DNA of 64,000 nucleotides, taken from a virus (Duplodnaviria > Heunggongvirae > Uroviricota > Caudoviricetes). Made by a program: the position numbers and the translations under genes. This document shows, one piece after another, positions 5,667 to 58,245 of this stretch (position 1 is the first letter of the stretch; every line of letters begins with the position of its first letter). The notes below the pieces were generated by a model that had not been told where the DNA came from, ran no database searches, and worked only from the letters and a program-made list of their open reading frames with translations. The stretch covers positions 1-64,000 of IMG/VR virus record IMGVR_UViG_3300045988_154997. One strand, written 5' to 3'.

Positions 5667-5676
5667 CTTCTTTCTC

Positions 5677-5697
5677 GATAGGTAAGTAAATACCTAT
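5677..5697. promoter_or_regulatory. recurrent roughly 21-bp palindromic element 'GATAGGTAAGTAAATACCTAT' (representative copy, 10 nt upstream of the methyltransferase start codon)
   Basis: Same element found by eye at about 3468, 10516, 15233, 19918, 23419, 28892, 35407, 41429, 45064, 47555, 53691, 59922. Confidence 0.4.
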
Positions 5698-5724
5698 TTT
5701 TGCATTTGATTTTATGTCTGGCAA

Positions 5725-5777
5725 TCAAATAAAACGCGCCAGAAATGCAAACGAGAAGCTCTCTGGCGCGTTTTTGT
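5725..5777. terminator. hairpin terminator (arms ACGCGCCAG / CTGGCGCGT) with T-runs on both sides; bidirectional
   Basis: aaaACGCGCCAGa...tCTGGCGCGTttttg read directly; downstream of the 5850..6659 gene. Confidence 0.5.
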
Positions 5778-5849
5778 GGTGCTGGGTATGTGATTGGCTT
5801 ACCCAGCACTATAAAGCTCTCTATGGGCTTTATTTTCAGTAGGGGAACG

Positions 5850-6659
5850 TCATCCAATAGTGTACTCCGCGACAAACTTCTTAACGATCGGTGATTCTTC
5901 GTTCAATGTTAGATTTCCACCGTCTCTAACGGCAATTCCTGTCGCTGGAAATACAGCCATCATTTGCCCAGCCTGAGTTGACGCAGTGTTAAGCGGATAC
6001 GGTTTTTCTGGATTGCTCATTAAAGCAATCTTAATACTATTACTTGTAGCCTTCTTTTCTGTGAGAAGGTGTCTCATGGAAATTACCGTGTAAACACTAA
6101 TATCTGGACCTCCGCTAAACCAATTAAGAAGGTTTAATATCTTATCCTTTGCTTTGACAGGCGCGTTATCGTAAGCGTCTAAGAAAATATCTTTTTCTAA
6201 GCCCGCTTTATTGAAAAACGAATCATCTTTATCACTTAAAGTAAAACGAGGACCTCTTGCAGTACGAGCTTTTTTATTTGTATTGCTATCATTTGACTGT
6301 TGAACTTTTAATTCATCATTAACCTCAACACACTCTTCAACCTCAATAAATCCCAATTGTTCTGGCTCGTTTTCGGCAGCTTCAACACTTTCAGCGTTAA
6401 TTACGTTTATAGGCTCATGCGCTAACTCCAACTCATTTAAAGCAGAGCTGAAATCACCTGCTTTTTCTTCATTGAACAGTTCTTCGGCAACATCATCAGA
6501 ACTCATGGCTACGCCAGCATCTAGGCCGAGCAGCAGATCGTCAATATCATCAGTATTTTCAACCTGTGCAGCTTTTTTTACTGGTTCATCAAGTGATTGC
6601 AACATGGCTGTCAGCTCGTCCAGATCATCATTTGTCATTACATTTTCAACCGAACTCAT
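5850..6659 (-). CDS. hypothetical acidic protein
   Basis: 269-aa ORF, strongly acidic N-terminal half. Confidence 0.5.
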   Translation of the reverse strand: MSSVENVMTNDDLDELTAMLQSLDEPVKKAAQVENTDDIDDLLLGLDAGVAMSSDDVAEELFNEEKAGDFSSALNELELAHEPINVINAESVEAAENEPEQLGFIEVEECVEVNDELKVQQSNDSNTNKKARTARGPRFTLSDKDDSFFNKAGLEKDIFLDAYDNAPVKAKDKILNLLNWFSGGPDISVYTVISMRHLLTEKKATSNSIKIALMSNPEKPYPLNTASTQAGQMMAVFPATGIAVRDGGNLTLNEESPIVKKFVAEYTIG

Positions 6660-6780
6660 GTAAGTCTCCTTCTGTTTGGTTACATTTGCGTTTCGATGGC
6701 TACATTTTGACTAAACCTATCAGGCGGAAAAGTATTAAATACAGGCAGGAAATGATTGAAAGGCGACTGTTCTTTAAAAG

Positions 6781-6820
6781 AAAGCCTACTTTAAACTTTT
6801 TAAAGTAGGCTTTTGTTTTA
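6781..6820. terminator. hairpin terminator (AAAGCCTACTTTAAA...TAAAGTAGGCTTT + TTTTGTTTT)
   Basis: Perfect 13-15 bp stem followed by T-run on plus strand and CTTTT on minus strand; immediately 3' of the exonuclease gene. Confidence 0.5.
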
Positions 6821-7375
6821 CACAATTTCAGAGGGTAATTTAAAAAATCCGTACTTATTACGTGCCTTAAAGAAGCATTGCATCATTAAGTTTGTGTCAT
6901 ATAAGGCACTATGTGCTTTGGCATGATCGTATATAAAGCCAAGAGAGAAGGCCAACTCTTCAAGGCGGGGACGTTTACCGTCTTCTGTGGCCCACAATCC
7001 CGATAACATAGTATCTATAACAGGAACTTCTGGCAGTCTTACTCCATACCCTGAAAACTCGTGTCGAATAAATGGTATATCAAATGCTTCGCCGTTATGA
7101 GCAACCCACACACTACATGCCCCCATATAAGCGCCAATTTCGCTGGCATGATTTGACAACAAAGGTTCAGCTGCGAGCTGTTCCAATGAAATGCCATGAA
7201 CGGCTTGAGCTTTCGGATCTATGTTTCTGCGAGGGTTAAAACGCATCTCCAGACTATCAACATGTCTCTGTGTCTCCAGTTCATAGCGGGTAATTGCGAT
7301 TTCAATAATTTTATGACCAGCAAGGAAATCCAGTCCCGTAGACTCGATATCGATGCCTGCAACAATCGTTGTCAT
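6818..7375 (-). CDS. DnaQ-like (DEDDh) 3'-5' exonuclease, epsilon-subunit-like
   Basis: Exo I motif GIDIESTGLD, Exo II HNGEAFDIPF, Exo III HSALYDT. Confidence 0.75.
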   Translation of the reverse strand: MTTIVAGIDIESTGLDFLAGHKIIEIAITRYELETQRHVDSLEMRFNPRRNIDPKAQAVHGISLEQLAAEPLLSNHASEIGAYMGACSVWVAHNGEAFDIPFIRHEFSGYGVRLPEVPVIDTMLSGLWATEDGKRPRLEELAFSLGFIYDHAKAHSALYDTNLMMQCFFKARNKYGFFKLPSEIV

Positions 7376-27779: not shown

Positions 27780-28808
27780 TTACAGAGAGTCCAGCTCTCT
27801 CAGTAGCTCATCCAGACCTTCATCTTCCGTCGCAGATGCGGTTGCTACAGATGTCGCTGCGACTGCTTCAGACTCTTTGACTGATACGGCAACGGCAGCG
27901 GAACTTGCCTCTGGTTTAAATTCAGTTTCAACGGCACGGAGGATTTCTTCATCAACCAGACTGGTTGGTTCAGAAGCCGGTGTGTGCGCGGTTGCTACAG
28001 CCGTCGCTCCTTCTGTATGACCAGTGACAGAGCCAAATCCAGGTAGTGCCGCAGCCGATGTTTTCGCGGTTGAGGAAATTGCTGGTGCAGATGCTGCGGC
28101 AGTTGGTGCAGCGATGCCAATCAGACGACCCATAGTGCGAACTGTCGACAGAAGACGAGTTTCATCAGCCTGATTTGCGTATGCGATCAGATCATGCTGG
28201 GTGTTCCAGAATTTATCTTCGATATCGCCTTTGTAGACTTTACGCTTAGGCGAGACGTCATATTTGGTATCGCGACCAGAGCCAGTACGTTTAATCAGGA
28301 ATGCGTAGCCTTCCTCTTTGCTCAGTGGATTGCCGATATCATCAGCGATGTCTTCGGTGATTGCTTTGCAGATATCATCGAATACAGTAGACGGCAGCTC
28401 GATTAACTGGCATTTCTCAGCATCTGCGAAATCCTCACGAGCAGAAAGAATGCCGTTGACCAGGTAGCGAGGAGTGGCACGCATTTGACCGATGCGTTCT
28501 TCCATTGCTTTGTTACCCTTGTGACGAGCGCGACCTTCCATCACCATTTCGCATAGCTGACAAGCGCGACCGTGAGTATGTTGCTCACAAATATAAGCGT
28601 TGGTTGCTTCTTTACCTTCCTCGTTCTGATACTTAACGTAGTGCATACCGAAAGTCTGGAAGAACTTACCGTTTGGGTCGTCTTTATTCGGGAAGATGCG
28701 GATATAGTTGACGCCGTCTTTTAAGCGAGTCAGATCAACGTTGTTACCACGTTTGGCGGCAATGTCTTCACGAGTTTTGTTAAGCAAATCAAGTAATGTC
28801 TTAGACAT
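27780..28808 (-). CDS. putative ssDNA-binding protein (gp32-like?)
   Basis: Cys/His cluster CEQHTHGRACQLC, Ala/Ser/Thr-rich linker and acidic C-terminal tail DEGLDELLRELDSL; function inferred from architecture and neighbourhood. Confidence 0.4.
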   Translation of the reverse strand: MSKTLLDLLNKTREDIAAKRGNNVDLTRLKDGVNYIRIFPNKDDPNGKFFQTFGMHYVKYQNEEGKEATNAYICEQHTHGRACQLCEMVMEGRARHKGNKAMEERIGQMRATPRYLVNGILSAREDFADAEKCQLIELPSTVFDDICKAITEDIADDIGNPLSKEEGYAFLIKRTGSGRDTKYDVSPKRKVYKGDIEDKFWNTQHDLIAYANQADETRLLSTVRTMGRLIGIAAPTAAASAPAISSTAKTSAAALPGFGSVTGHTEGATAVATAHTPASEPTSLVDEEILRAVETEFKPEASSAAVAVSVKESEAVAATSVATASATEDEGLDELLRELDSL

Positions 28809-28925
28809 GTGTTTCTCCTTGTTGTGATTTGGCCGATGGCGCTATGCGCGTTGGGCTTTCGTTCATTCGTGGCTCTTTCGAGCTGTTAAATGATAGATCA
28901 GTACTTACTTATTATCTATCAAAAA

Positions 28926-29357
28926 TCAACGGGGAGTAATAAAGCGTTCAGAGCCTAATCGCTCTAATTCAACGATGGCCATCTTTGACGCCTGAACGAT
29001 CATGTCTCGGCGATGCGAAAAGGCGGCGACAGCATGTTTGTATATGTCTGCGATGTGCCGTGCTTCATCCAACTTCTGCCGTTTAGACAGATACTGTGGG
29101 TTTGTTTTAACCTTAGCGTCCAGTACAGATTCGTTGAACTTAATGCCGTTCATACTCAAGTTCTTACGCTCTGTGTCGTATAGCTTTGCTTCAACAGCTT
29201 CAAGGTTAAGTTTTGCTTCTGCGACACTTCTTTCTGCATGGGCGAGTTTTGAGCCATATTCCATCAACAGGCGGGGTTGTCTACGCCAGACTTCTTCCAG
29301 ATTGTCTCGGTCAAACTCGAGATCGGACATGATTTTTTCGTATATATTGGTGCTCAT
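28926..29357 (-). CDS. hypothetical coiled-coil protein
   Basis: 143-aa ORF. Confidence 0.5.
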   Translation of the reverse strand: MSTNIYEKIMSDLEFDRDNLEEVWRRQPRLLMEYGSKLAHAERSVAEAKLNLEAVEAKLYDTERKNLSMNGIKFNESVLDAKVKTNPQYLSKRQKLDEARHIADIYKHAVAAFSHRRDMIVQASKMAIVELERLGSERFITPR

Positions 29358-38105: not shown

Positions 38106-38498
38106 GTGACCATGTCTGATAACAAGATTGAATTTATAGAAAGTCGCTACGCTGCTTTTATCGCAGGGTTGATTGAATCCTCACCTATGAGCCAGGCCCA
38201 GATAGCCAAAACAATTGGGTATAAAAACGCCAACAACCTTTCTTTAATTAAAAGCGGCAAAATTCCTTTGCCTATCGATAAGGTTCGTCCGCTGGCGCTG
38301 GCACTGGGTATTGAGCCAAGTCGTCTTATGATGATGGTGCTGGAAGAACGCCAACCCGAACTCGCAGCATTTTTATACAAAGAAGGCACTGCTCCTCTTA
38401 ACGAGGACGAAAAACAGGTTCTTGCTGCATATAACGAGCGATTCGGTAAAGAGAAAGGCGCATCACAAAAGGTTGTTGAGGCCATAAAGTCTCTATGA
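38106..38498 (+). CDS. XRE/Cro-type helix-turn-helix transcriptional regulator
   Basis: MSQAQIAKTIGYKNANNLSLIKSG...ALALGIEPSRL HTH pattern. Confidence 0.6.
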   Translation: MTMSDNKIEFIESRYAAFIAGLIESSPMSQAQIAKTIGYKNANNLSLIKSGKIPLPIDKVRPLALALGIEPSRLMMMVLEERQPELAAFLYKEGTAPLNEDEKQVLAAYNERFGKEKGASQKVVEAIKSL

Positions 38499-39596
38499 AA
38501 AATTTACACGAATAAGCTCTGTTGATAGACGATCTCCCTTAAATTTGTGGTCAATTTCGTCTAAATCCGGTTGCTCTACGATTGATGCGATGTACGTCGA
38601 GAAACTTTCTAAGGCGTCTCGCATCTCGTCCATATAATCGTGCCGGTCGTAGACCCGATCTATCCCCTCAAGACTGTGGTTCATGATTTTACGTGATACC
38701 TCCTGGCTTATGCCTAATGCTGGGAAGTAACTACGCGCAGTACGGCGCAAATCTCGGGGTGTAAATGGCTCAAGCTCCATCAGTTCTGGTCGTTCCAGAA
38801 TACGACGTAATGCCTGGGCTATTGCCACTTTAGACATAGGAAGGTCTTTCCCGATTTTTTTATTCGAAGGCACGAGCCACTGGCTGTCTTTACCATATTC
38901 GAACAACTCTTCAATACATGTGCGCATTAATGAGCTTAAAGGCAGAGAATGCTCACGGGCAGATTTGTTCCTCTTGCCTTGATTCCAAACCCCACGCTTA
39001 AGATTGAACTCACTTTTTTTAGCCCGCAGTACTTCGTCAGGTCGTCTTGCGGATACAAGACATAGCCTGGCCGCCCATTTTGTACCAGCACACACATTGA
39101 AGTAGTCCCATATATTCCAGAACACCCATACCTCTGCGTCGGTCAGCTTCCGCTCGCGAGGTGTGGGCTTTGCGCCACCGGCAACTTTGTTAAGTGACAT
39201 ATCGTTTAACGGTGACACGTCGATCATCCCCTGGAAGGCGCACCAGCTGAGGAACTGCTTCATCAGAGAGAAAACGCGGCGACCCATAACAATTTTGCCA
39301 TCCAGTATTAGTGGGTTGACCAGTTGGTTCACCATGAACCTATTAATATCACTTACTTTTACATCGGCAATGTGCGGCAAAACATGTATCAAAATACAAT
39401 GAACAGCGATCTCTGGCCGACGTCTTGTTATCAGCAGAGATAAGCGAGTGAATAACATGAATGCGTCCGAGAATCTCATGTCATTGCTGACCTGGGAGAT
39501 CATAACGGCCTGCATTTGAGATGCTCTTTCGAGATACTCAATCGCCTCTTTTGAGGTGTTCTCCGCAGCGCGTGCTCTGTCAAAGCTATTTTTCAT
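38493..39596 (-). CDS. tyrosine recombinase / phage integrase family protein
   Basis: C-terminal catalytic region ...RDLRRTARSY...HSLEGIDRVYDRHDY (R, H-x-x-R, Y pattern). Confidence 0.7.
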   Translation of the reverse strand: MKNSFDRARAAENTSKEAIEYLERASQMQAVMISQVSNDMRFSDAFMLFTRLSLLITRRRPEIAVHCILIHVLPHIADVKVSDINRFMVNQLVNPLILDGKIVMGRRVFSLMKQFLSWCAFQGMIDVSPLNDMSLNKVAGGAKPTPRERKLTDAEVWVFWNIWDYFNVCAGTKWAARLCLVSARRPDEVLRAKKSEFNLKRGVWNQGKRNKSAREHSLPLSSLMRTCIEELFEYGKDSQWLVPSNKKIGKDLPMSKVAIAQALRRILERPELMELEPFTPRDLRRTARSYFPALGISQEVSRKIMNHSLEGIDRVYDRHDYMDEMRDALESFSTYIASIVEQPDLDEIDHKFKGDRLSTELIRVNFS

Positions 39597-39804: not shown

Positions 39805-40794
39805 TTGATTTACTTGAAAATGGCTGGTTTTATAGTATTGTCATGCGATCGCTGCAACAGGATAAGAAAAATGATAAAAGAGACACCGGAAGTCAACACG
39901 CTATCTGAGTTATTAGGGGCTACGCCTCCCAAACCTCAGCTAGTAGTGACGACTAAAGGTATTGATTTAGGTCTGGATATCTCCCTCGGAGATTGGAATA
40001 ACTCTTCATTATTATCACGACCTTCAGCTTTGTTAGCAATTGAGCATGGGGAAAATTTATTTGAACTCATGGATAAAGAGTTAGGTCTTGTTGGTATTAA
40101 TGAAGAAGGAGTGATCAAGTCAAACATCATTATCGAACTAGATCCCCATAAAACAACTATGAGAATATTAGGTAAAATTGCGGAAGCACTCATTGTTGAA
40201 GAATGTGAAAAAAACGCGAAACAAAATGAAAACTGGGCATTATTAGCAAAGAGATATACCCCTTTCACAGATAGTTTGTCTAATTATAAAGCTGTTGGGA
40301 CTGGACTCAACTATACGAAAATTAACTATCCTACTAAATATCAACCTAATGATACTCAACGGGACATTGTGTGGATAGACAAACGAGACCCACTTTCTCA
40401 ATTACTTATTTCTGCTCCAACGTCGAATTCAGGTATACAGGCTGGAATTCAAGTGAAGGTCAGTGCAAATGGTCTTAACTATCTATCACCAATGGATTTT
40501 TCTAGCAGAAGATATGAGGTCCCTATTGTTTACTTTGATTTAAATAATGATTTTTTTGAAATTCAGATGAAGATAGTGAACTCAGGAATTGATTCGGTTT
40601 ATGGAATGGATTATCACCGTGGTAGAAACATTTCTCCTGAAATACATGAAAAACTATGTGCATATTATAACCTTATATACTCCATTATCATTGGTGATAT
40701 GAAATTAGAGGCTCTGTTACTAAATGAAGAGGCACTGAAAGGGTATGTGACTGAGATTAAAGATAGACAAGGTAAAAGAATAATCGTGACGTGA
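39805..40794 (+). CDS. AT-rich hypothetical protein (accessory, unknown function)
   Basis: 329-aa plus-strand ORF immediately after the integrase; no motif recognised; true start may be an internal ATG. Confidence 0.45.
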   Translation: MIYLKMAGFIVLSCDRCNRIRKMIKETPEVNTLSELLGATPPKPQLVVTTKGIDLGLDISLGDWNNSSLLSRPSALLAIEHGENLFELMDKELGLVGINEEGVIKSNIIIELDPHKTTMRILGKIAEALIVEECEKNAKQNENWALLAKRYTPFTDSLSNYKAVGTGLNYTKINYPTKYQPNDTQRDIVWIDKRDPLSQLLISAPTSNSGIQAGIQVKVSANGLNYLSPMDFSSRRYEVPIVYFDLNNDFFEIQMKIVNSGIDSVYGMDYHRGRNISPEIHEKLCAYYNLIYSIIIGDMKLEALLLNEEALKGYVTEIKDRQGKRIIVT

Positions 40795-41232: not shown

Positions 41233-41521
41233 TGCTTTGCCTCGTTATGCGCTTCGCTGGGGAACGTGTAGCGGTTAGTGAAAGAGCTGAGGTGGTAGTG
41301 CTCGTGAATGTATGGATTTGACTTCTGCACCTGACGAGATGCGCGACGCGCATGTTTACATTTATTTCCCATATTGAGTCCTTTCAAGTGAGTATCCGAA
41401 AGAACTATACAGTTAACGTGCGTAAAAAGTAAGTGCTTACCTATCATTTATTGATAGAAGAATAGCCGCCTGTCGTGTGATACTATTTACAGAACTAAAC
41501 TGGCTTTCCACAAGGTGTAAA

Positions 41522-42343
41522 ATGACTATCCTTGAAAATCCTGATGCGAATGTTGAATCTGTTTATAGTCTTCATCCAACCACGTTGTTTCATTTTACAA
41601 AAAACGAAGATGCTTTCTATAGCATATTGGCTGAGAAATATTTTAAACCATTTCTTGCTCGCGAGGAAATAAGAGGAGTCGGGGGACGCAGGAGGTTTGC
41701 AGTACCAATGGTATCGTTTTGTGACATAAAACTATCACAAATCAGAGATCATAGCGGAAAATATGGAGAATTCGGTCTTGGGCTAACTAAGTCTTGGGCG
41801 GAAAAGAAAGGTCTACACCCAGTTCTATATATGAATAAGAGTAGTGAAATATTTTCTAAATACAATGCCAGAATTCGACTTATTAAAAATAAGTTGGTGC
41901 CGCTTTGGAAGGCTAGAGGAAATTTAGATACCAAAAACAGAATAGAGTTTGAGAAATTGAAAGCAGAATATTCTGATCTATATAATTTACTGCGTTATAT
42001 GAAAAATTACAGAGGCAAGCTAGAGCGAAAAGATAATAAAACAATAGAGAATTATATATATGCAGACGAGAAAGAGTGGCGTTATGTGCCAGCTCCTTTT
42101 ATTGGTGATTTATGGCCTAGTCTGAGTTTGGAGCGTGTTATCACTTCTGATGACAAAGCAAAAATTAGCTCAAAATTTTCAAAGTTTGGCATTGATTTTG
42201 AGTTCAATGATATAAAATATATACTTATACCTAAAGAACAACATATCCAAAAGCTAATTAACTTTCTCTCAGGTTTAGATGGATTTGAATCTTCAATTAT
42301 TAGCAAAATTCTGACCATGGATAAAGTAAAGCAAGATTTTTAA
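41522..42343 (+). CDS. DUF2971-like protein (candidate defence cassette, gene 1)
   Basis: RBS AAGGTG-N4-ATG at 41522; motifs LFHFTKNEDAFYSIL and HSGKYGEFGLGL resemble the LYKY.../...HKG.C.GF signatures seen in the clearer DUF2971 protein at 55116..55835; AT-rich. Confidence 0.45.
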   Translation: MTILENPDANVESVYSLHPTTLFHFTKNEDAFYSILAEKYFKPFLAREEIRGVGGRRRFAVPMVSFCDIKLSQIRDHSGKYGEFGLGLTKSWAEKKGLHPVLYMNKSSEIFSKYNARIRLIKNKLVPLWKARGNLDTKNRIEFEKLKAEYSDLYNLLRYMKNYRGKLERKDNKTIENYIYADEKEWRYVPAPFIGDLWPSLSLERVITSDDKAKISSKFSKFGIDFEFNDIKYILIPKEQHIQKLINFLSGLDGFESSIISKILTMDKVKQDF

Positions 42344-42369
42344 TTTTTGGTTTAACGGGAGCCTAATTA

Positions 42370-43581
42370 GTGTCAATATTTTTAAGCGAAAAGGAAATGC
42401 AAAATTGGATAATTGACAAATTATCTGATCAAGATGGATTATATAATTCAATCATCAATATTGATAAATTAAATGAATTTAATCCGAAAAGACCCGAAGA
42501 GAAAAAAATTAAGGAGAGTTATCAGTTTTGTTTAAAGAACATAACATTGTTACATTTAATGACAGATGATGAGAATATCTCAGCAACAAAATCTGAGATA
42601 TTAAGACCTGATGTCGTTGCTTATTCAACAGAGAATGAATCCTTAGTTCTTATTGAGTTAAAAAATTTTTCAACACCAACAAGGGAAGCTGGAACTGAGC
42701 TAGTGGCATATGCTGCGGAACTAAAAAGTTACTTGTCATACTTGTCTGATGGAGATATTACCAATGTACTTATATCACCTGACTGGCCACCTTTGGTTAG
42801 ACACTTTATTTTTAATATGATCGTGTGGCAGAAGAAAAACTTTCTATGTTTAGAACCTTGCTATGATTTACAAGGTAACGTATCACTTACTCCTTTAGAT
42901 ATTAATAAATTAGTTATTGCGGAAGAAGCACTCAAGTTCTCATTTCGTCATCTTGGCGGGTTTCATATATGTTTGTATGATGATGAAATGTATAATCAAC
43001 CGACTTCCACTTCTCGTTTACATTCGAAATTGAATGTTATTAAAGCCAGCATGGCAAAAATGTCCTCAGACGGTGAAAAGACTAATAGCCATGGGTTTGC
43101 TATTTTATGTAGAAATTTGAACGAGAGAACTTTAGCACCATATACGATTACTCTAGTTAATGTTTCTGCGTTTTCTTCCATAGAGCGATACTTTCATTCG
43201 CCACAAATATCCAATGCTTCTCAACTCCCTAGAATAGGACAAAAAATTTATGACATTTACACTCATTACCAACCATCAGGTTTTGGGGCATCAATGTCGA
43301 AAATTTACAATTCTGGGAGGGCATATTTAGAAAAAATTAATTGCAAGCCGCGGATCGAGGTTATAGACACCTGGGATGTATTGCAAGTACATACACATGC
43401 GCCTTATATGGAAATGGTTCATATTGAAACGTGGGGAGTTTTTAAAGAAAAATTGATTGAAGGTCTAAATGAATGTTATGAGGATGAATATTACACACCT
43501 GATTTTAACGATGTAGATTTTTGCATGGTGTGTATTGAATCCTTAATTGACCAGAATTATGAATTTATAAAACTTTTTTGA
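42370..43581 (+). CDS. PD-(D/E)xK nuclease-like protein (candidate defence cassette, gene 2)
   Basis: GTG start with GGGAG RBS; N-proximal RPDVVAYSTENESLVLIELK fits D...E-x-K restriction-endonuclease-like motif; rest unrecognised. Confidence 0.45.
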   Translation: MSIFLSEKEMQNWIIDKLSDQDGLYNSIINIDKLNEFNPKRPEEKKIKESYQFCLKNITLLHLMTDDENISATKSEILRPDVVAYSTENESLVLIELKNFSTPTREAGTELVAYAAELKSYLSYLSDGDITNVLISPDWPPLVRHFIFNMIVWQKKNFLCLEPCYDLQGNVSLTPLDINKLVIAEEALKFSFRHLGGFHICLYDDEMYNQPTSTSRLHSKLNVIKASMAKMSSDGEKTNSHGFAILCRNLNERTLAPYTITLVNVSAFSSIERYFHSPQISNASQLPRIGQKIYDIYTHYQPSGFGASMSKIYNSGRAYLEKINCKPRIEVIDTWDVLQVHTHAPYMEMVHIETWGVFKEKLIEGLNECYEDEYYTPDFNDVDFCMVCIESLIDQNYEFIKLF

Positions 43582-49154: not shown

Positions 49155-50300
49155 ATGAAATACATAAAATCTTCATCGTTGCTGGCATTAACTTTGCTTT
49201 TTAACTCTGGATTCGTTAACGCAGACAATAAACAAACGCTGATAGAAGCCGCTACCGCAGGGGATACCGCAGCACAAAGTGAGTTAGGTACAAATTATTT
49301 TGATGGTGTCAATGGTTTTGATAAGGATGTAGTTGAGGCCAAGAAGTGGATTGATCTAGCTGCAGAAAAGGGAGATAAAGTAGCATATTATGCACTTGGA
49401 GTTATGTACACATTTGGCGAGGGTGTAGATAAAGACCTAAATAAAGCTGTTGAGTACTACAAACTTGCGGGGGATGCTCGTGAAGGTAGAGCCTACAACA
49501 ATCTTGGTGCTATTTATCAAAAGGGGATGCTTGGTAAAGTAGATCATGCACTCGCCATTAAATACTTCAAACTAGCCTCTGATGCCGGGTATGTTAAAGC
49601 AACTTCAGTTCTTGGGGCGTATTACCAATATGGTAAAGGCGTTAAAAAGAATTATAAAAAGGCTTTTACTTATTACAAAAAGGCGGCAGACCAAGGCAGT
49701 TCAGAAGCTATGATAGGATTAGGAATACTATACGATGATGGGTTAGGCGTTAAACGCAATGATGCAGAAGCAGTTAAGTGGTATAAAAAGGCAGCGGAAC
49801 TTGGAAACGCCGACGCCATAACCAATCTTGGCATTATGTATGAGAATGGGGAAGGTGTAAAAAAGGACTATAAAAAAGCAGCCGACCTTTATCAGACTGC
49901 TTGCGATAAAGGAGAAAAAAGAGGCTGCGATTACATTGCAGAACTGAAAGAAAGCGGCAAATATCGAGCGCCGGCTTCCAAAGCCAAAACAAAATCCGCC
50001 ACCCAGCGACTTATTGCTAAATCCATTGATAAGGGCGTTAACGCTACATTTACCTGGCAGGGTGATGATGCTACCTTCACCGCTAATGATGGCAAAGTTG
50101 ACTGCACCTTCCTGAAGGATTTTTCAGAGAAAGGAGGCAATCTGGCTACCTCGTTTGTTTGCACCGACAACGTTCAAATCATCCTGAAGCAATTCAGAGA
50201 TACCAAGAATGCCTACCTCGCGGTAATGACTGACAACTTCAACACAGAAGTTAAATCATTTTCGGTCAATGTGTACGTGACTAATACTGGTTCAAACTAA
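49155..50300 (+). CDS. secreted Sel1-repeat (TPR-like) protein
   Basis: Signal peptide; at least 6 tandem Sel1-type repeats (G.GV.KD..KA..WY.KAAE.G); non-repeat C-terminal domain. Confidence 0.7.
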   Translation: MKYIKSSSLLALTLLFNSGFVNADNKQTLIEAATAGDTAAQSELGTNYFDGVNGFDKDVVEAKKWIDLAAEKGDKVAYYALGVMYTFGEGVDKDLNKAVEYYKLAGDAREGRAYNNLGAIYQKGMLGKVDHALAIKYFKLASDAGYVKATSVLGAYYQYGKGVKKNYKKAFTYYKKAADQGSSEAMIGLGILYDDGLGVKRNDAEAVKWYKKAAELGNADAITNLGIMYENGEGVKKDYKKAADLYQTACDKGEKRGCDYIAELKESGKYRAPASKAKTKSATQRLIAKSIDKGVNATFTWQGDDATFTANDGKVDCTFLKDFSEKGGNLATSFVCTDNVQIILKQFRDTKNAYLAVMTDNFNTEVKSFSVNVYVTNTGSN

Positions 50301-52938: not shown

Positions 52939-53679
52939 TTAATTAGATAGGGGATCAATAAACCGCCGTGCTTCTTCCAGTTCTTCTGGAAAGTGGGCGG
53001 AAATAAGGCGCTCTGGAACGATTTCCATTAGCCAGATAGCAGAGAAAATTGCGCGTATGCGCTTGCTGCGGGGGATGATGCGCAAACGCTCCAGAATCCA
53101 CTCAAAATAGCTTTCCTGAATCGGGTTGAACTGCATGTCTCCCATATGCTTAAAGCTAACCAGAGAGTCATCCAGACGGGTTGTTGCGCGTCTGGATAAT
53201 TTCTCTTCGAATATCTCAATCAGTTCTGGCTGCCATAAATGCTGTGGGCGCGGCAACTTGTCCCACAGACGCCGTGCAGCTGCGGAAAGAACCGTGGAGA
53301 TAAAGTAGTCGTATGAACAGCAATAGCGATCAGCAAACTGGCGTGCTTTCCATAGCGACGTTTTATTGGCAGTCGACAACTCCTGATAAGGCAGGCGTTT
53401 TAACCCGGTGGTGAACGGAGCTGTTTCAAAGTGTTCGCGACCGTGCGTCAGCATGATATTTGAGTACTGACGTTTGTATGCCTCCGTAAAAAGACAGGTG
53501 GCCATGAGAGGATGCATGTCGCGGTAATCAAACCACTTCGTCTCGAAGAGTTCAGCCTCGTCATTGCAGCGCGACAAACCAATGTTTTCAGCGACCCACT
53601 TGTCCATAACAGCGGTATTCCACTCTGTCATGAAGTCGTACTGGTCGTTGTCAATGGTATCAAAAAAGATTTGGCTCAT
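52939..53679 (-). CDS. hypothetical protein
   Basis: ORF-track start is GTG 53688; ATG at 53679 has AGGTGA RBS and the 21-bp palindromic element directly upstream (53691..53711). Confidence 0.5.
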   Translation of the reverse strand: MSQIFFDTIDNDQYDFMTEWNTAVMDKWVAENIGLSRCNDEAELFETKWFDYRDMHPLMATCLFTEAYKRQYSNIMLTHGREHFETAPFTTGLKRLPYQELSTANKTSLWKARQFADRYCCSYDYFISTVLSAAARRLWDKLPRPQHLWQPELIEIFEEKLSRRATTRLDDSLVSFKHMGDMQFNPIQESYFEWILERLRIIPRSKRIRAIFSAIWLMEIVPERLISAHFPEELEEARRFIDPLSN

Positions 53680-53797
53680 GTGGCTCACCTGATAGGTAGT
53701 TACTTACTTATTGCAATGAGCGGATGATAGCGACTGGTGGCAGTTTTTGGAAGTGGAAACGGAAGGGAATGTGTCTGGGAAGTTGGCATAGAAAAAG

Positions 53798-53852
53798 ACC
53801 TGCTTCCGTATAAATAATAATAAGTAACTTAGTATTTATATACAGAAGCAGG
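53798..53852 (-). terminator. long-loop hairpin element, copy 2 (arms ACCTGCTTC[C/T]GTATA) followed by CTTTTTCT on minus strand
   Basis: Near-identical arms to 4993..5051; immediately 3' of the 53877..55073 gene. Confidence 0.45.
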
Positions 53853-53876
53853 TTCCAAATTCAACCAGCAGGATGC

Positions 53877-55073
53877 TTAAACATCTTTTAGAAAGCCTGG
53901 AAACCAATGTTTCATGATATACCTAAAATGTGCTCTAGTTGGTTCAAAAACCTGTCTAGATACCAGCGCTCCATCAGGATGATTCTGAACAGACTGTTCT
54001 TTTTCCATATCGTAAAAATTATGAGTTATCTCTGGGGGGAAGAAAATATTTCTGTCCAGTGGCACTGTCGCAAAAGGATTGTAGTAAATATGAAGGCCGT
54101 CAAAGTGCGTCTCTTCATGAGCAGTGGAATGGCAAACTACAATATCCGCACCAGTGACTTCGTTATTTAAAAAATGCCGATATGTAGTGATGAAATGATC
54201 AGGACCTATCCTTTGTGTGTGCTTTCCCTCGTTTTTCATCCCTTCATTGGCGATGAAATCATTCACATCAATGGCTCGATATCGTGTTGACCTTACATAT
54301 CTACCGATACCGCTTTGAACCACGGCTTTTCCAAAAGTGCCGGTGGTGGAGAAAATAACCGCACTTATTTCTTTATATGAGTCGTTAGTAAATATACCTA
54401 ATGGAATTTCAACGTCTTCATTCTTTTTGATTGAGGTAACTTTAGTTTGGCTGCCAGTCACCAAATTTCTGGTGGTAGGTTCCTCAATGCCAAACAACAC
54501 TCGATTGATGATTGTGTTATTTTGAGACAATGATAAATCGGAGTCAAAGGGTGCAAGCGCCAGAACAAACGGCTTATTAACTACATGAGACATCGTAGAG
54601 TACGGGAATTTTTTGCCATTAACTCCTGTAAAAAGATCATGTTTGTCTTTGATTTTTCCGATTAATTTTAGCGTTGATTGATGTTTGAATTTTGATTCGC
54701 TAAAAAGAGCACCTGCAGGTGGATTATGTGGCCGATCTGATATCACAGCTTCGACGTTAAACTGGTAGCCTGACGGTGTAGTAACACAGAAATCGGGACT
54801 GTCTTTTGTGTAGTCGACAGAATAATCGAGACGAATAAACATTTCGTTCAGATACAATTCCCATAAGGCGGAATTGAAGGTTGTCTGAAACTCTTTAACG
54901 AATTTAGTCTGCTCACCGCTACGCTCCAGTAACCCACGCCCCCACGACTGTATCACTTCTCTTACTGGAGCATATGTATTATCTTGATAAATCTGTTTAA
55001 AAGATTCGTGCAGCTTGTTTTTTGCTATTTTGGTTGAGAACAAATCCATTATTAGCCTCACTAACCAGTTCAA
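53877..55073 (-). CDS. hypothetical protein, possible degenerate PD-(D/E)xK fold (partner of DUF2971 protein; candidate defence cassette)
   Basis: 398-aa AT-rich ORF directly downstream of the DUF2971 gene; SPDFCVTTPSGYQFNVEAVIS loosely fits a D...E-x-x nuclease core (weak). Confidence 0.45.
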   Translation of the reverse strand: MNWLVRLIMDLFSTKIAKNKLHESFKQIYQDNTYAPVREVIQSWGRGLLERSGEQTKFVKEFQTTFNSALWELYLNEMFIRLDYSVDYTKDSPDFCVTTPSGYQFNVEAVISDRPHNPPAGALFSESKFKHQSTLKLIGKIKDKHDLFTGVNGKKFPYSTMSHVVNKPFVLALAPFDSDLSLSQNNTIINRVLFGIEEPTTRNLVTGSQTKVTSIKKNEDVEIPLGIFTNDSYKEISAVIFSTTGTFGKAVVQSGIGRYVRSTRYRAIDVNDFIANEGMKNEGKHTQRIGPDHFITTYRHFLNNEVTGADIVVCHSTAHEETHFDGLHIYYNPFATVPLDRNIFFPPEITHNFYDMEKEQSVQNHPDGALVSRQVFEPTRAHFRYIMKHWFPGFLKDV

Positions 55074-55115
55074 TAAGAAAAGCGCCCAACATAATCATTT
55101 GAGGAAAGTCTGGAG

Positions 55116-55835
55116 CTACTTCAGCTTTTCTTTGACAAGAAGATAACCATCATCAGGTGTACTCATTTTGTAAACCTCGATGCTCGTGTCTAGCTGTGTC
55201 CGGGCATATTCTTCTACTTCAGGAGAAACGTTATACCCAAGAATGATCTCTCTAATATATTTCTTATCAAATGCCTGAGCGCCTATTTTTTTAGTAATAA
55301 CCCTTTGTTCTTCCTCATATTTCCAGCATTCGTGCTTGTAGAAAAAGAGCTTATCAAAAAGTACCTTAAACTCATCTGTAACTTCATCGAACACGGGAAC
55401 AGAAGGTATATATTTCACATTATCAAAGCTGTGATACCCCTCAATAGAGGTAACAAAATCATCATCAAAGCCTATGCAGAAACCTTTATGCGACACTGAG
55501 TAATGTGACCACATCAAGATGTTATCTTCGTTTGGTGACAAGCACACCACACCAAAAGCCCCTAATGATTCTTTCCGCAAATCCACAGCCAACGATTTTG
55601 CAGCTTCAGGAGCTACAGCATCCCAGTCTTCAAAGGAAAAATCCTTACATCCATTGTCTTCAAAGTGTTTCCGGCGCTCCACTTCTGTACCTCCCATCGT
55701 TATCGAAACTTTGAACTCTGATGGGTCGTTGAATGAAGAAGGTGCGCTAGCAGAGATAGTGCCGTCCTCTACAAACCGTTTGAGGTTACGTAACACTTTT
55801 TGCGAATCTTCACTTCCAATATATTTGTAGAGCAT
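55116..55835 (-). CDS. DUF2971 family protein
   Basis: N-terminal MLYKYIGSEDSQKVLRNL...SSFNDPSEF and central LMWSHYSVSHKGFCIGF match the DUF2971 signatures as I recall them; start may instead be the upstream TTG at 55874. Confidence 0.55.
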   Translation of the reverse strand: MLYKYIGSEDSQKVLRNLKRFVEDGTISASAPSSFNDPSEFKVSITMGGTEVERRKHFEDNGCKDFSFEDWDAVAPEAAKSLAVDLRKESLGAFGVVCLSPNEDNILMWSHYSVSHKGFCIGFDDDFVTSIEGYHSFDNVKYIPSVPVFDEVTDEFKVLFDKLFFYKHECWKYEEEQRVITKKIGAQAFDKKYIREIILGYNVSPEVEEYARTQLDTSIEVYKMSTPDDGYLLVKEKLK

Positions 55836-55879
55836 TAGGGAACCTATAGAAAGAGGTGCCAAGCAGCACCTCAATAAAA

Positions 55880-56239
55880 TTAACCTTTCTTCATCAACTC
55901 GCGTTTGATTTCATCGGTACGCATCGTGACGTCGGCAGCAGTGATCGCCTCGTTAAGTTTCACGATATCCTCGATTTCCTGCGGCGACTTCTCTGCCAGA
56001 TGGAAAATAGCAGCACGAATCACATCAGAGCGGGTGAATTTCTCGAAGCGAGGGATGAACTTCATCATCTCCAGCAGTTCGAAGTATTCGTCTTCCAGTG
56101 ACATTGTGCGGCTTTTAATTTTCTCTTTGCCACGAGTCGGGCGTCCCTGTGGTCTGACTGGTTGGCGCAAAGGAGTTGTGTTCTTAGCCGGTGCATCAGG
56201 CTCTTTGCGCTTTGCTAGGTCACCCATTTTCATGGACAT
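55880..56239 (-). CDS. ribbon-helix-helix centromere-binding protein (ParG-like partner of ParA)
   Basis: Basic/Pro-rich N-terminal tail then RHH-like SRTMSLEDEYFELLEMM...RSDVIRAAIFHLAEK; directly downstream of parA. Confidence 0.5.
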   Translation of the reverse strand: MSMKMGDLAKRKEPDAPAKNTTPLRQPVRPQGRPTRGKEKIKSRTMSLEDEYFELLEMMKFIPRFEKFTRSDVIRAAIFHLAEKSPQEIEDIVKLNEAITAADVTMRTDEIKRELMKKG

Positions 56240-56907
56240 TATTCTTCTTCCTCCAGACTCAACAGATAATCTACAAATTCTTCAAACTCGGCTTCCGCCT
56301 TTTTGTCGCGCTCGCTACCGGTCATTTCAAAGATAGAACGACCAGACTCTTCCGCATCATCGTAGACGTTGCGGTTATATAGATTGACAGGCGCAGACTC
56401 GATGCCAAACGTCTCGACAATCTCTTTAGCCGCCAGAATGCGAGACACTTGTGATGGCAAAGCCGGGCACTGGTTCATGACCGCGCGGACCTTCACTTTA
56501 TCGTTTACATTGCGAACATTGTCGATAATAGGATCGATGTCACGTAAAGATTTCAAATCACGACGCTTAGGACGCAGCGGGATAATGATAACGTCAGCCA
56601 TCAGCATCGCTTGTCGCTGAATTTCGGAGTCGAAGCCACCAGCATCTACCACTACATACTCAGCTCTACCCTGAAGCGATTTTAGGTGCTTAATGATGTC
56701 ATCCTGAACGTATGCAAAAGGAATCAGCTCAAGGTCTTCGTTCTGTCGACGGTCTTCACACCAGCTCGTTGTCGTGCGCTGAATATCTATATCGGTGATA
56801 TAAACCTTCTTCTTCTTTTTGACTTTCAGGCAAACGGCAATTTGCTGGGCAACGGTGGATTTGCCAGGCCCGCCCTTTGTGCCGCCAACCACAAAGATCT
56901 TGGTCAT
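56239..56907 (-). CDS. parA: ParA-family partition ATPase (small, type Ib-like)
   Basis: Deviant Walker A KIFVVGGTKGGPGKST; 222 aa. Confidence 0.8.
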   Translation of the reverse strand: MTKIFVVGGTKGGPGKSTVAQQIAVCLKVKKKKKVYITDIDIQRTTTSWCEDRRQNEDLELIPFAYVQDDIIKHLKSLQGRAEYVVVDAGGFDSEIQRQAMLMADVIIIPLRPKRRDLKSLRDIDPIIDNVRNVNDKVKVRAVMNQCPALPSQVSRILAAKEIVETFGIESAPVNLYNRNVYDDAEESGRSIFEMTGSERDKKAEAEFEEFVDYLLSLEEEE

Positions 56908-57069: not shown

Positions 57070-57846
57070 TTAGTGGTTGGTAGACCTGGCATCAAATGTT
57101 GTAACGCCCACTTCAATGTGGCGGTCTTCTTTGGAGATGATGGTGAGAATCTGACTAGATGGGTCTATGCTGACAGCCATAGGGTTCCAGTGACGTAACT
57201 GAGCCTCGCTGTTCAATAGCAGCGCATCCCACGGTTTGACGCCATTCTGCCCAATACCACCTTCAACAAGGACATCTATAAATTCTTTATTTAAATTGTC
57301 ATAGATTTGGACACGCCCGACCAGAAGCATACCGACCGCCCAAATTCTGGCACCGTAAACCGTCTGATGGTCATCACATACCACATGGTCATGCCAATTG
57401 AGAAGGAAATTGTAAACTCTTCTAGCAAGTCCCTTTTGTTCCTTTGAAGGGGTTACAAATGCCCCTTTGATCTGGACACCAAGGTGAGAGCCTTTTTGTG
57501 AGCGAAACTGGAAACGTTTGTAGACGAACCTGGCAATCTGAATGCCGTCATCATCTTCTTGTTCATCACCAACTAACTCACGAACACTATGAACTATCTC
57601 TGCTTCTGAATACCCCTGCTCGTCAAGATCCATTGCATGTTCTTGAAGCCAATCTGCATCAGGGTCGCCTACAAATGATACTGTCAAACAGTAATCATAA
57701 TTAGATCCCGTCAAGGACCATTCTGTGAGCCGTAAAACAGAAAAATCAGAGTTAACCATGTAGCCAACTCTGATTTTCTCTCTTGCTTCACATTCAGGGA
57801 AATCAGACAGAACTTTTGAATACTCTGCTATGAATGATGGTGACAT
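57070..57846 (-). CDS. hypothetical protein
   Basis: 258-aa ORF, start adjacent to stop of 57847..58245. Confidence 0.5.
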   Translation of the reverse strand: MSPSFIAEYSKVLSDFPECEAREKIRVGYMVNSDFSVLRLTEWSLTGSNYDYCLTVSFVGDPDADWLQEHAMDLDEQGYSEAEIVHSVRELVGDEQEDDDGIQIARFVYKRFQFRSQKGSHLGVQIKGAFVTPSKEQKGLARRVYNFLLNWHDHVVCDDHQTVYGARIWAVGMLLVGRVQIYDNLNKEFIDVLVEGGIGQNGVKPWDALLLNSEAQLRHWNPMAVSIDPSSQILTIISKEDRHIEVGVTTFDARSTNH

Positions 57847-58245
57847 TTAGTTCGCAAGCCGCATATCCGTAGATGAATCCAGTTTCGCTATTTTAACATC
57901 TACGCGGTATTTATCTTTGATAAATTTAGCTATTTTGCTTTCAATCTCATAGAAAGCATCCTGTTCACAACGCACAACATCGGGAAACTGTTTTTCTGGC
58001 TTAACAAGAAAACGTAACCGATTGTTGAGCACCATCATTTCTGCAAACAATTTGATGGTAAACTTGCCTTCTTCAACGTCACTTTTAAGGTTAACGATGA
58101 AACGCTGATCCTTAAGCATACCCGGTTTGTTCATTTCACGAATTTGGAGCGAGTCATTCCAATGCCGCAACGGAACCGATGCGATCATCTTGGTACAGTC
58201 TCTTATCGTCTGAATAGAACGAGATGCGTTAAGTGCAGTATGCAT
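57847..58245 (-). CDS. hypothetical protein
   Basis: 132-aa ORF. Confidence 0.5.
   Translation of the reverse strand: MHTALNASRSIQTIRDCTKMIASVPLRHWNDSLQIREMNKPGMLKDQRFIVNLKSDVEEGKFTIKLFAEMMVLNNRLRFLVKPEKQFPDVVRCEQDAFYEIESKIAKFIKDKYRVDVKIAKLDSSTDMRLAN

What the first reader, a model, noticed from the sequence alone, without database searches (positions are those of the whole stretch)
53798..55874. Second low-GC two-gene cassette: DUF2971 protein followed by a 398-aa protein, next to the partition module
55116..55835 carries clear DUF2971-type signatures (MLYKYIGSEDSQKVL, SSFNDPSEF, LMWSHYSVSHKGFCIGF). It is followed 43 nt downstream by a 398-aa ORF (53877..55073) that I cannot assign, with a possible degenerate D...E core (SPDFCVTTPSGYQFNVEAVIS). 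The pair is closed by the long-loop hairpin terminator at 53798..53852. Both genes look AT-rich relative to the flanking parA and helicase genes. DUF2971 is a family without assigned function as far as I know.
Basis: partly seen in the sequence, partly recalled or inferred. Interest (0 to 1): 0.8.

Follow-up and report, generated by a model that had tools for sequence, protein, structure and literature searches.

The report
Two stacked anti-phage genes on phage-plasmid
Next to the partition genes of an SSU5-type phage-plasmid of E. coli sit two foreign-looking genes, a homologue of the known anti-T7 nuclease PD-T7-5 and a DUF2971 protein with an ADP-ribosyltransferase fold; they look like two separate single-gene phage-defence modules parked in a cargo hotspot, so the finding is real but largely already known.

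Summary
Both ORFs exist, both are AT-rich (GC 0.40, against 0.48-0.49 in the flanking genes), and a strong hairpin follows them. Two coordinates need correcting: the second gene starts at ATG 55049 (390 aa, not 398), and the gap between the genes is 66 nt.

The "unassignable" protein is a full-length match to the PADLOC model for PD-T7-5 (E 1.5e-139). PD-T7-5 is a single-gene anti-T7 system validated by Vassallo et al. 2022. The DUF2971 protein passes Pfam's threshold and matches the PADLOC candidate PDC-S31. Its model folds like the DNA ADP-ribosyltransferase DarT. DUF2971 already has a validated single-gene member, Aristaios.

The window is an SSU5-like phage-plasmid. The site between parB and the replication genes is a cargo hotspot with four states: DUF2971 alone (most common), DUF2971 plus PD-T7-5, PD-T7-5 alone (with a DUF2971 deletion scar), or unrelated genes. 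Of the 149 E. coli genomes carrying the gene, 136 have it alone on the chromosome.

Best reading: two autonomous defence modules stacked in a hotspot (about 0.68).

A minority reading (about 0.17) is functional coupling. In Enterobacteriaceae, PD-T7-5 often follows an ART-like gene, either DUF2971 or AbiGi.

Novelty is low. DefenseFinder has already reported PD-T7-5 on these elements.

The parts
53798..53852 (-). Terminator-like hairpin with a 15-bp stem and an AT-rich loop, followed by CUUUUUCU. It closes the cassette but is part of the conserved backbone flank.
   Evidence: Folds at -24.1 kcal/mol, z -7.4; sequence. Present at 85-97% identity in relatives without the PD-T7-5 gene (L003-L006 align over 53864..53402). 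It also follows PD-T7-5 in L080 and L143.
53877..55049 (-). PD-T7-5 family gene, 390 aa. It has an N-terminal PD-(D/E)XK-like nuclease domain and a beta-rich C-terminal domain of unknown fold.
55050..55115 (-). 66-nt intergenic spacer carrying the GAGG ribosome-binding site of the PD-T7-5 gene. No terminator lies between the two genes on this strand.
   Evidence: Sequence. The terminator scan finds none on the minus strand here. The spacer is alignable between the three pair alleles.
55116..55835 (-). DUF2971 / PDC-S31 gene, 239 aa, predicted ADP-ribosyltransferase fold.
55853..55872 (-). Short GC-rich hairpin directly after the parB-like stop codon and 17 nt before the DUF2971 start. It is a weak terminator of the partition operon and belongs to the backbone.
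   Evidence: Folds at -13.5 kcal/mol, z -5.2. Conserved in L002 and L004, whose alignments run to 55825 and 55812.
55880..56907 (-). Partition module forming the right border of the hotspot: a parB-like 119-aa gene (55880..56239) and a ParA/MipZ ATPase (56239..56907).
   Evidence: Pfam AAA_31, MipZ, CbiA and ParA hits for the 222-aa protein. These genes are 91-100% identical in related phage-plasmids while the cargo differs.
52939..53688 (-). Conserved 249-aa backbone gene forming the left border of the hotspot, upstream of the DnaB-like helicase and primase.
   Evidence: No Pfam hit. 89-99% identical across relatives. Annotated as a hypothetical protein in all records.

Best explanation
The segment 53865..55879 is cargo in a recombination hotspot of an SSU5-type phage-plasmid, between the parAB partition operon and the replication genes. 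It holds two autonomous single-gene anti-phage modules, one after the other on the same strand.

Module 1 is a DUF2971 protein. It is predicted (not shown) to be an NAD+-dependent ADP-ribosyltransferase of the DarT/AbiGi-like branch. By analogy with Aristaios and DarT, it would be switched on by infection and stop phage transcription or replication, at the cost of the cell.

Module 2 is a PD-T7-5 homologue with an N-terminal PD-(D/E)XK-type nuclease domain and a C-terminal domain that may act as the sensor. By homology to the validated system, it is expected to protect against T7-like phages on its own.

The element carries them because protecting its host from competing lytic phages protects the element itself.

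Shown here: family membership, folds, conserved catalytic-type residues, the hotspot structure, and the independence of the two genes in nature.

Inferred: enzymatic activities, triggers, phage range, and whether the mechanism is abortive or direct.
For: Identity of the element:
- 100% nucleotide identity to about 112-kb non-mobilizable E. coli plasmids, with flanks matching phage SSU5 and 536 PLSDB plasmids.

Gene identities:
- Family matches are; fold matches are.

PD-T7-5 works alone:
- Vassallo et al. cloned a single CDS of the same length (ORF 27110-28283) with only 143 nt upstream and 119 nt downstream (PMC9519451).

DUF2971 works alone elsewhere:
- Aristaios is a single-gene system (PMC11381338).
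- PADLOC lists PDC-S31 among its untested candidates. I read the 'S' as 'single-gene', which I did not verify.

The hotspot occurs in all four states:
- DUF2971 alone in SSU5 itself, E. hormaechei and phage Cyrano.
- The pair in the window and in L075-78.
- PD-T7-5 alone in Cronobacter pCS1, L081, L083 and L084.
- An unrelated gene on the opposite strand in L006.

Frequencies:
- A DUF2971 homologue is on 311 plasmids (270 covering at least 80% of the query), but PD-T7-5 is on only 13 SSU5-like plasmids.
- In 5,426 complete E. coli genomes, the gene is on plasmids in 13 (same 13 counts as the full pair; not cross-checked record by record). In 136 it is chromosomal; the one such locus examined is an ssrA-integrated island where it stands alone.

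Loss of one gene is tolerated:
- Cronobacter pCS1 keeps an intact PD-T7-5 next to an in-frame deletion scar of DUF2971, with the first 11 nt and the last ~94 nt retained (E 1.7e-22).
- A sub-lineage pairs a truncated 189-aa DUF2971 with an intact PD-T7-5.

No conserved partner family-wide:
- Among 107 non-redundant upstream neighbours, DUF2971 occurs 4 times, AbiGi 2 times, and the rest fall in 79 different Pfam families.
- No neighbour cluster spans more than 5 of 65 genome loci.
- In L131 the two genes are separate integron cassettes with an attC-like repeat between them. L132 shares only the PD-T7-5 cassette.

DUF2971 alone in another hotspot:
- The closest DUF2971 relative outside phage-plasmids (51% identity) sits alone in P2-like prophages, between the tail-fibre assembly gene and the sheath gene.

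Cargo behaviour:
- In L075 the backbone proteins are 98-100% identical to the window, while PD-T7-5 is 76% and DUF2971 54% identical.
- GC3 is 0.37-0.40 in the cassette against 0.52-0.57 in the flanks.
Against: - The pair is not a one-off. Three alleles (window; L072/73 at 80%/73% identity; L075-78 at 76%/54%) align contiguously through the intergenic spacer. The two genes have therefore stayed linked and intact over roughly 25% nucleotide divergence.
- A monophyletic group of PD-T7-5 homologues (L080, L082, L095, L143) has an AbiGi gene in the same upstream slot. AbiGi is another ART-like family said to be related to DUF2971.
- No terminator separates the two genes on the coding strand, and no promoter stands out above chance. 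They may be co-transcribed.
- No function was tested here.
- I could not obtain the sequence of the validated PD-T7-5 protein (RRM82777.1), so its identity to the window protein is unknown. By inference it is probably the 76%-identical chromosomal type.
- Sequence similarity to Aristaios itself was not tested.
Confidence: 0.68

Rival explanations
1. The two genes form one functional two-component system with an AbiG-like architecture: an ART-like protein of about 240 aa followed by an effector of about 390 aa. The fast-evolving ART-like protein would act as sensor, regulator or second effector for the conserved PD-T7-5 nuclease. The solitary PD-T7-5 genes would be reduced but still active derivatives.
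For: - Three diverged pair alleles share gene order, strand and an alignable spacer.
- An AbiGi gene (PF10899, E about 1e-50) sits in the same slot in four further loci.
- In the NJ tree, the DUF2971-linked forms are basal or paraphyletic within the enterobacterial clade, so pairing may be ancestral there.
- The effector is conserved (76-80% identity) while the partner is hypervariable (54-73%), as with sensor modules.
- The same window holds a second cassette of the same layout: AbiGi at 41477..42343 plus a 403-aa ORF at 42370..43581.
- There is no terminator between the genes.
Against: - PD-T7-5 protects as a single cloned gene.
- It is chromosomal and away from the window-type plasmid in 136 of 149 E. 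coli genomes that carry it, and solitary in the one such locus examined.
- DUF2971 was cleanly deleted in the Cronobacter-type lineage with PD-T7-5 kept intact.
- DUF2971 is alone in most SSU5-like plasmids and in P2 prophages.
- The AbiGi-linked group is monophyletic, so it counts as one event. A 62%-identical AbiGi relative has no PD-T7-5 next to it.
- Only 1 of 109 distant PD-T7-5 loci has a DUF2971 neighbour, and there the two are separate integron cassettes.
- One homologue is instead preceded by an NlpC/P60-like gene, as expected for a mixed-cargo slot.
Confidence: 0.17
2. The DUF2971 gene is not host defence but serves the phage-plasmid itself. It could be an ART used for host take-over or counter-defence, as with phage-encoded ARTs, or an addiction or maintenance function tied to the neighbouring partition operon. 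PD-T7-5 would be the only defence gene of the pair.
For: - A DUF2971 homologue sits directly after parB in more than half of the SSU5-like plasmids, including SSU5 itself.
- It is 17 nt downstream of the weak parB hairpin, so it may be read through from the partition promoter.
- It is also carried by P2-like prophages and falls in phrog_1762, a phage protein family of unknown function.
Against: - The gene is absent or replaced in backbone-identical relatives (L006, L002), so it is not needed for maintenance.
- A DUF2971 protein gives abortive-type phage resistance in Lactococcus (PMC11381338).
- The family was picked up embedded in BREX, DISARM and RM loci (PDC-S31).
- Its site in P2 lies between the tail-fibre assembly and sheath genes. 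From my own knowledge (Rousset et al. 2022, not checked here) this is a cargo hotspot that holds defence genes.
- Divergence of 40-54% on a 98-100% identical backbone fits an arms-race gene, but it does not tell defence from counter-defence.
Confidence: 0.1
3. The cassette is inert cargo, meaning decaying or unexpressed genes of no current function.
For: No promoter above chance was found. Nothing was tested functionally.
Against: - Both ORFs are full length and keep every family-invariant residue.
- The pair is conserved at 98.5-100% nucleotide identity over the whole 2.3-kb query in 11 PLSDB plasmids (10 E. coli, 1 Citrobacter freundii) from several source types. The proteins also occur in Salmonella, Enterobacter and Shigella assemblies.
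- Three diverged alleles all keep both ORFs open.
Confidence: 0.05

Closest known systems
PD-T7-5 (Vassallo et al. 2022, Nat Microbiol; PADLOC PDLC04110; DefenseFinder PD-T7-5)
   Same: Full-length HMM match (E 1.5e-139). Same length as the validated ORF (390 aa). Same nuclease-type annotation. Same species. It has already been reported by DefenseFinder on clade-J SSU5-group phage-plasmids of E. coli and Shigella (bioRxiv 10.1101/2025.09.12.675607).
   Different: Here it sits on a phage-plasmid directly behind a DUF2971 gene. The common E. coli form is solitary in an ssrA island and only 76% identical in protein. Which of the two was the tested protein could not be established. The mechanism is unknown even for the validated system.
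Aristaios (lactococcal plasmid single-gene Abi-like system, DUF2971; Grafakou et al. 2024, PMC11381338)
   Same: Pfam DUF2971 and a predicted ADP-ribosyltransferase fold. Carried on a plasmid. A single gene that occurs alone in most relatives.
   Different: 239 aa against 316 aa, and a Gram-negative phage-plasmid rather than a lactococcal plasmid. No phenotype is known for the enterobacterial branch. PADLOC lists that branch only as the untested candidate PDC-S31.
DarT of DarTG toxin-antitoxin systems (ssDNA thymidine ADP-ribosyltransferase)
AbiG (AbiGi + AbiGii) of Lactococcus
   Same: Same layout: an ART-like protein of about 240-250 aa followed on the same strand by a protein of about 390-400 aa. 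Close PD-T7-5 homologues do follow true AbiGi genes in four loci.
   Different: The DUF2971 protein does not hit the AbiGi model, and PD-T7-5 does not hit any AbiGii model. AbiG needs both genes, whereas PD-T7-5 does not.
Defence hotspots of temperate phages and satellites (P2 and P4 hotspots; Rousset et al. 2022, from my own knowledge)
   Same: A fixed site between conserved backbone genes, exchangeable AT-rich cargo, and many alternative occupants on near-identical backbones.
   Different: The site is in an SSU5-type phage-plasmid, between parB and the replication module. As far as I found, this particular hotspot has not been described as such.

Membership tests
PD-T7-5 | Full-length match to the family profile | tested here: met
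   PADLOC PDLC04110 E 1.5e-139, 462.9 bits, protein residues 9-379 of the 398-aa reading on profile positions 1-342 of 346.
PD-T7-5 | Single-gene system: one protein of about 390 aa, sufficient on its own | tested here: inconclusive
   Length is met (390 aa). Homologues are mostly solitary, but here a DUF2971 gene lies 66 nt upstream. Sufficiency cannot be tested in silico.
PD-T7-5 | PD-(D/E)XK-type nuclease core | tested here: inconclusive
PD-T7-5 | Protection against phage T7 | not testable with these tools
   Needs plaque assays.
Pfam DUF2971 (PF11185) | Score above the curated gathering threshold | tested here: met
   30.2 bits against a cut-off of 22, E 1.2e-6, profile positions 1-89 of 89.
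PADLOC candidate PDC-S31 | Match to the candidate's profiles | tested here: met
   PDLC04990 E 2.6e-38, PDLC04994 E 6.2e-31, and two further profiles. The candidate itself is untested.
Aristaios | DUF2971 domain with an ADP-ribosyltransferase fold | tested here: met
Aristaios | Direct sequence relatedness to the Aristaios protein, and an abortive phenotype | not tested
The phenotype needs experiments.
DarTG | Adjacent macrodomain antitoxin (DarG) and a DarT family sequence match | tested here: not met
   The neighbours are the parB-like gene and PD-T7-5. Neither protein has a macro-domain or DarT Pfam hit.
AbiG (AbiGi/AbiGii) | Matches to the AbiGi and AbiGii profiles | tested here: not met
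   No AbiGi or AbiGii hit for either protein in Pfam, PADLOC or NCBIfam. Only the gene layout resembles AbiG.
Type II toxin-antitoxin pair | Obligate co-occurrence of the toxin with its neutralising partner | tested here: not met
   Each gene occurs alone in the same hotspot and elsewhere.
SSU5-group phage-plasmid cargo hotspot | Conserved flanks with alternative cargo on near-identical backbones | tested here: met
   536 plasmids share the flanks and 11 share the cargo. There are several size classes of insert. Backbone identity is 98-100% against cargo identity of 40-76%.

The most novel reading that the evidence does not exclude
In Enterobacteriaceae, the PD-T7-5 nuclease is the conserved effector of a two-part system whose upstream partner is an exchangeable, fast-evolving ART-like protein (DUF2971 or AbiGi). 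The partner would set trigger specificity or add a second ADP-ribosylating blow. This would make the system an AbiG-like design with a PD-(D/E)XK nuclease in place of AbiGii. The same window carries a second instance of the layout, AbiGi plus a 403-aa protein at 41477..43581.
Probability: 0.15. Interest if true: 0.6.

Novelty: new member of a known kind. Interest (0 to 1): 0.3.

Why it matters
If the main reading holds, the value is modest and descriptive.

- It fixes the annotation of two "hypothetical" genes that are widespread on clinically common SSU5-type phage-plasmids.
- It shows that the site between parB and the replication genes is an exchangeable cargo slot. The slot mostly holds DUF2971 alleles that diverge far faster than the backbone.
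- It gives an enterobacterial DUF2971 protein that could be tested easily in E. coli. The family has about 6,000 species' worth of members and only one tested member.
- Neither family has a solved structure or a known mechanism.
- The recurrent ART-like gene in front of PD-T7-5 is a cheap hypothesis to test.

Tried and rejected
- A genome-contig scan with the single protein found no relative. Repeating it with alignment A2 worked.
- A narrow DUF2971 HMM built from 4 sequences found no neighbour in 65 genome loci. The broader A3 HMM added only L131.
- I asked whether the 403-aa partner of the window's AbiGi gene is a distant PD-T7-5 relative. BLASTP and hhalign show nothing. Likewise, hhalign sees no similarity between the window's AbiGi and the DUF2971 profile.
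- Foldseek of the PD-T7-5 model against PDB found nothing below E 0.16. Profile searches of PDB sequences gave nothing meaningful for either family.
- Rfam on 53500..56300 gave only sub-threshold noise.
- The promoter scan found 5 sites against 7.3 expected by chance, so no promoter can be claimed. The -35/-10-like site at 55192..55165 is only a lead.
- I looked for a DUF2971 deletion scar upstream of the chromosomal E. coli PD-T7-5 and found none. The scar in Cronobacter pCS1 is real.
- I first took L072 to be an independent genomic context because it has a CbtA toxin upstream. I rejected this because its flanks are still homologous to the window over 55988..53597.
- I could not retrieve RRM82777.1 or the Aristaios sequence, so identity to the tested proteins is unknown.
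- NCBIfam has no model for either protein.
Full report
**What is there**

On the minus strand the window reads as follows:
- a ParA/MipZ ATPase at 56239..56907
- a parB-like 119-aa gene at 55880..56239
- a short hairpin at 55872..55853
- a 239-aa ORF at 55116..55835
- a 66-nt spacer
- a 390-aa ORF at 53877..55049
- a strong hairpin at 53852..53798
- a conserved 249-aa gene, then a DnaB-like helicase and a primase

The 252-aa and 398-aa readings start at TTG codons that no homologue uses. The alignments start at MLYKY and MDLF. RefSeq annotates the second gene from ATG 55049, which has a GAGG site 8 nt upstream.

The cassette has GC 0.401 and GC3 0.37-0.40. The four flanking genes have GC 0.48-0.49 and GC3 0.52-0.57. 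The downstream hairpin folds at -24.1 kcal/mol (z -7.4) and is followed by a U-run.

**What the element is**

The 2.3-kb segment is 99.4-100% identical to about 112-kb non-mobilizable plasmids of E. coli from poultry, pigs, cattle and humans. Its flanks match phage SSU5, phage Cyrano and 536 PLSDB plasmids of Escherichia, Klebsiella, Enterobacter, Salmonella and Citrobacter. The window is therefore an SSU5-group phage-plasmid.

**The 390-aa protein**

It is not unassignable. It matches the PADLOC profile of PD-T7-5 end to end (E 1.5e-139), and the core of PD-T7-1 (E 1.8e-42).

PD-T7-5 came from a functional selection in E. coli. Table S2 of that paper lists a single CDS with ORF coordinates 27110-28283, the same length as here. 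It was cloned with 143 nt upstream and 119 nt downstream and annotated "Nuclease" (PMC9519451). A review lists it among PD-(D/E)XK proteins.

My own evidence for the fold is moderate:
- 31 homologues down to 48% identity keep E64, D79, K82, P85-D86-F87, E100-A101, K128 and K136.
- Foldseek and sequence searches of PDB find nothing.
- The beta-rich C-terminal half has no recognisable relative.

**The 239-aa protein**

It passes Pfam's DUF2971 threshold and matches four profiles of PADLOC candidate PDC-S31. PDC systems are untested candidates found embedded in BREX, DISARM and RM loci.

The family is no longer functionless:
- Aristaios, a 316-aa DUF2971 protein on a lactococcal plasmid, is a validated single-gene abortive-type system with a predicted ADP-ribosyltransferase fold. 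It is reported to interfere with phage transcription.
- A 2025 survey places DUF2971 in the H-Y-E clade of ARTs, near DarT and AbiGi.

**Is it one cassette or two modules?**

The site is a cargo hotspot. On backbones whose DnaB, ParA, ParB and 249-aa proteins are 89-100% identical to the window, the slot holds one of four things:
- a DUF2971 gene alone, 40-41% identical to the window's (SSU5 gene 037, E. hormaechei, phage Cyrano)
- a diverged DUF2971 plus PD-T7-5 pair (L075-78)
- PD-T7-5 alone (Cronobacter pCS1, L081, L083, L084)
- an unrelated gene on the other strand

A spread sample of the 536 plasmids shows several insert size classes. DUF2971 homologues are on 311 plasmids. PD-T7-5 is on only 13 SSU5-like ones. 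DUF2971 is therefore the usual resident and PD-T7-5 a rare addition.

The Cronobacter plasmid retains the first 11 nt and the last ~94 nt of a DUF2971 ORF in front of an intact PD-T7-5. This is an in-frame deletion scar. One E. coli sub-lineage pairs a truncated DUF2971 with an intact PD-T7-5.

In 5,426 complete E. coli genomes, 149 carry the PD-T7-5 gene. In 13 it is on plasmids, matching the 13 genomes that hold the full pair (the two lists were not cross-checked). In 136 it is chromosomal at 72% nucleotide identity. In the one chromosomal locus I examined it stands alone in an ssrA-integrated island.

Across the whole family, I examined 136 loci with at least 1 kb of upstream sequence. Their 107 non-redundant upstream neighbours fall into 79 different Pfam families. 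DUF2971 appears four times and AbiGi twice.

The only distant co-occurrence, L131, is a chromosomal integron array. There the two genes are separate cassettes with an attC-like repeat between them, and a related array shares only the PD-T7-5 cassette.

The closest DUF2971 relative outside phage-plasmids sits alone in P2-like prophages, between the tail-fibre assembly gene and the sheath gene.

Together with the single-gene validation of both families, this makes two autonomous modules the best reading.

**What speaks for coupling**

The linkage is old. Three pair alleles (window; L072/73 at 80% and 73% protein identity; L075-78 at 76% and 54%) align contiguously through the spacer.

Four further loci carry a PD-T7-5 gene 74-77% identical to the window's, directly behind an AbiGi gene on the same strand. 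AbiGi is another ART-like family reported to be related to DUF2971.

In a neighbour-joining tree the AbiGi-linked genes are monophyletic, so they count as one event. The solitary forms nest among DUF2971-linked ones. That fits an ancestral pairing in Enterobacteriaceae followed by repeated loss of the partner.

Against coupling:
- A 62%-identical AbiGi occurs without PD-T7-5.
- One E. coli homologue is preceded by an NlpC/P60-like gene instead.

I therefore rate functional coupling as possible but a minority reading, at about 0.17.

**Transcription**

No terminator lies between the two genes on the coding strand. The hairpin after parB has a poor U-tract. Promoter-like sites are no more frequent than in shuffled sequence. 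Expression could come by read-through from parAB or from internal promoters, and this is open. The terminal hairpin is backbone, not cargo.

**Comparison with what is known, and novelty**

PD-T7-5 on clade-J SSU5-group phage-plasmids of E. coli and Shigella has already been reported from a DefenseFinder screen. DUF2971 is covered by PADLOC as PDC-S31 and by Aristaios. Both proteins fall in PHROG families of unknown function.

New here, and only descriptive:
- the anatomy of the hotspot
- the fast turnover of DUF2971 alleles on identical backbones
- the deletion scar
- the recurrent ART-like gene upstream of PD-T7-5

I file it as a new member of a known kind, with interest 0.3.

**Limits**

Nothing functional was tested. 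The sequences of the tested PD-T7-5 protein and of Aristaios were not available to me. The contig sizes in cluster 3 suggest that the tested PD-T7-5 is the chromosomal type, which is 76% identical to the window protein. This is an inference.

Noticed in passing
An AbiGi gene (Pfam PF10899 E 4.8e-25; PADLOC AbiGi E 5.3e-47) is followed 27 nt later by a 403-aa ORF. That ORF matches no AbiGii model and has only a weak HSDR_N_2 (PD-(D/E)XK clan) hit and phrog_30092. The layout is the same as in the finding. No similarity to PD-T7-5 was detected by hhalign.
   Followed up: partly
window 38493..39596 (-) and 39805..40794 (+): A tyrosine integrase (Phage_integrase E 2.9e-10) and a 329-aa ORF with no family hit lie at the edge of the most AT-rich stretch of the window (GC down to 0.34). 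This suggests a separately acquired islet.
   Followed up: no
window 57070..58245 (-): Two ORFs (258 aa and 132 aa; phrog_3307 and phrog_2594, function unknown; GC about 0.40) lie on the other side of parA. At the equivalent place Cronobacter pCS1 has a DUF1778 + GNAT toxin-antitoxin pair, and phage Cyrano has an antitoxin + KacT pair. This looks like a second variable slot flanking the partition operon.
   Followed up: partly
L002 (Cronobacter sakazakii pCS1, NZ_CP012254) 5353..5557: An in-frame deletion scar of a DUF2971 gene lies between parB and PD-T7-5. The first 11 nt and the last ~94 nt are retained, at 79-85% identity to the L075 allele.
   Followed up: yes
L131 (metagenome contig Ga0233386_1000008) 3100..9250: Eight copies of a ~70-nt attC-like repeat (TAAC...GGGACGGGCTAAAGCCCGCCCC...GTTA) bracket single ORFs, forming a chromosomal integron array. 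DUF2971 and PD-T7-5 occupy adjacent but separate cassettes.
   Followed up: yes
L172-L177 (E. coli P2-like prophages) 4001..4726: A DUF2971 gene 51% identical to the window's sits alone between the tail-fibre assembly gene (Caudo_TAP) and the tail sheath gene. From my own knowledge this is the P2 cargo hotspot; that was not checked here.
   Followed up: partly
L080, L082, L095, L143 (about 5180..5940 in the 13-kb loci): AbiGi-family genes with no AbiGii lie immediately upstream of PD-T7-5 homologues, on the same strand. In L082 an IS30-like transposase lies further upstream.
   Followed up: partly
L171 (E. coli NCTC9064, NZ_LR134315) 4934..6944: A PD-T7-5 homologue at 64% nucleotide identity is preceded on the same strand by a 241-aa gene annotated as a YiiX/YebB-like NlpC/P60 cysteine hydrolase. 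The locus is an island that also carries YeeU/CbtA.
   Followed up: no
window 49155..50300 (+): A 381-aa Sel1/TPR-repeat protein with an N-terminal signal-like sequence is encoded on the opposite strand to its neighbours, beside the primase gene. RefSeq annotates it as a tetratricopeptide repeat protein.
   Followed up: no
window 27780..28808 (-): A gp32-like single-stranded DNA-binding protein (Pfam gp32, E 1.6e-66) lies in another low-GC patch at 28250..29000.
   Followed up: no
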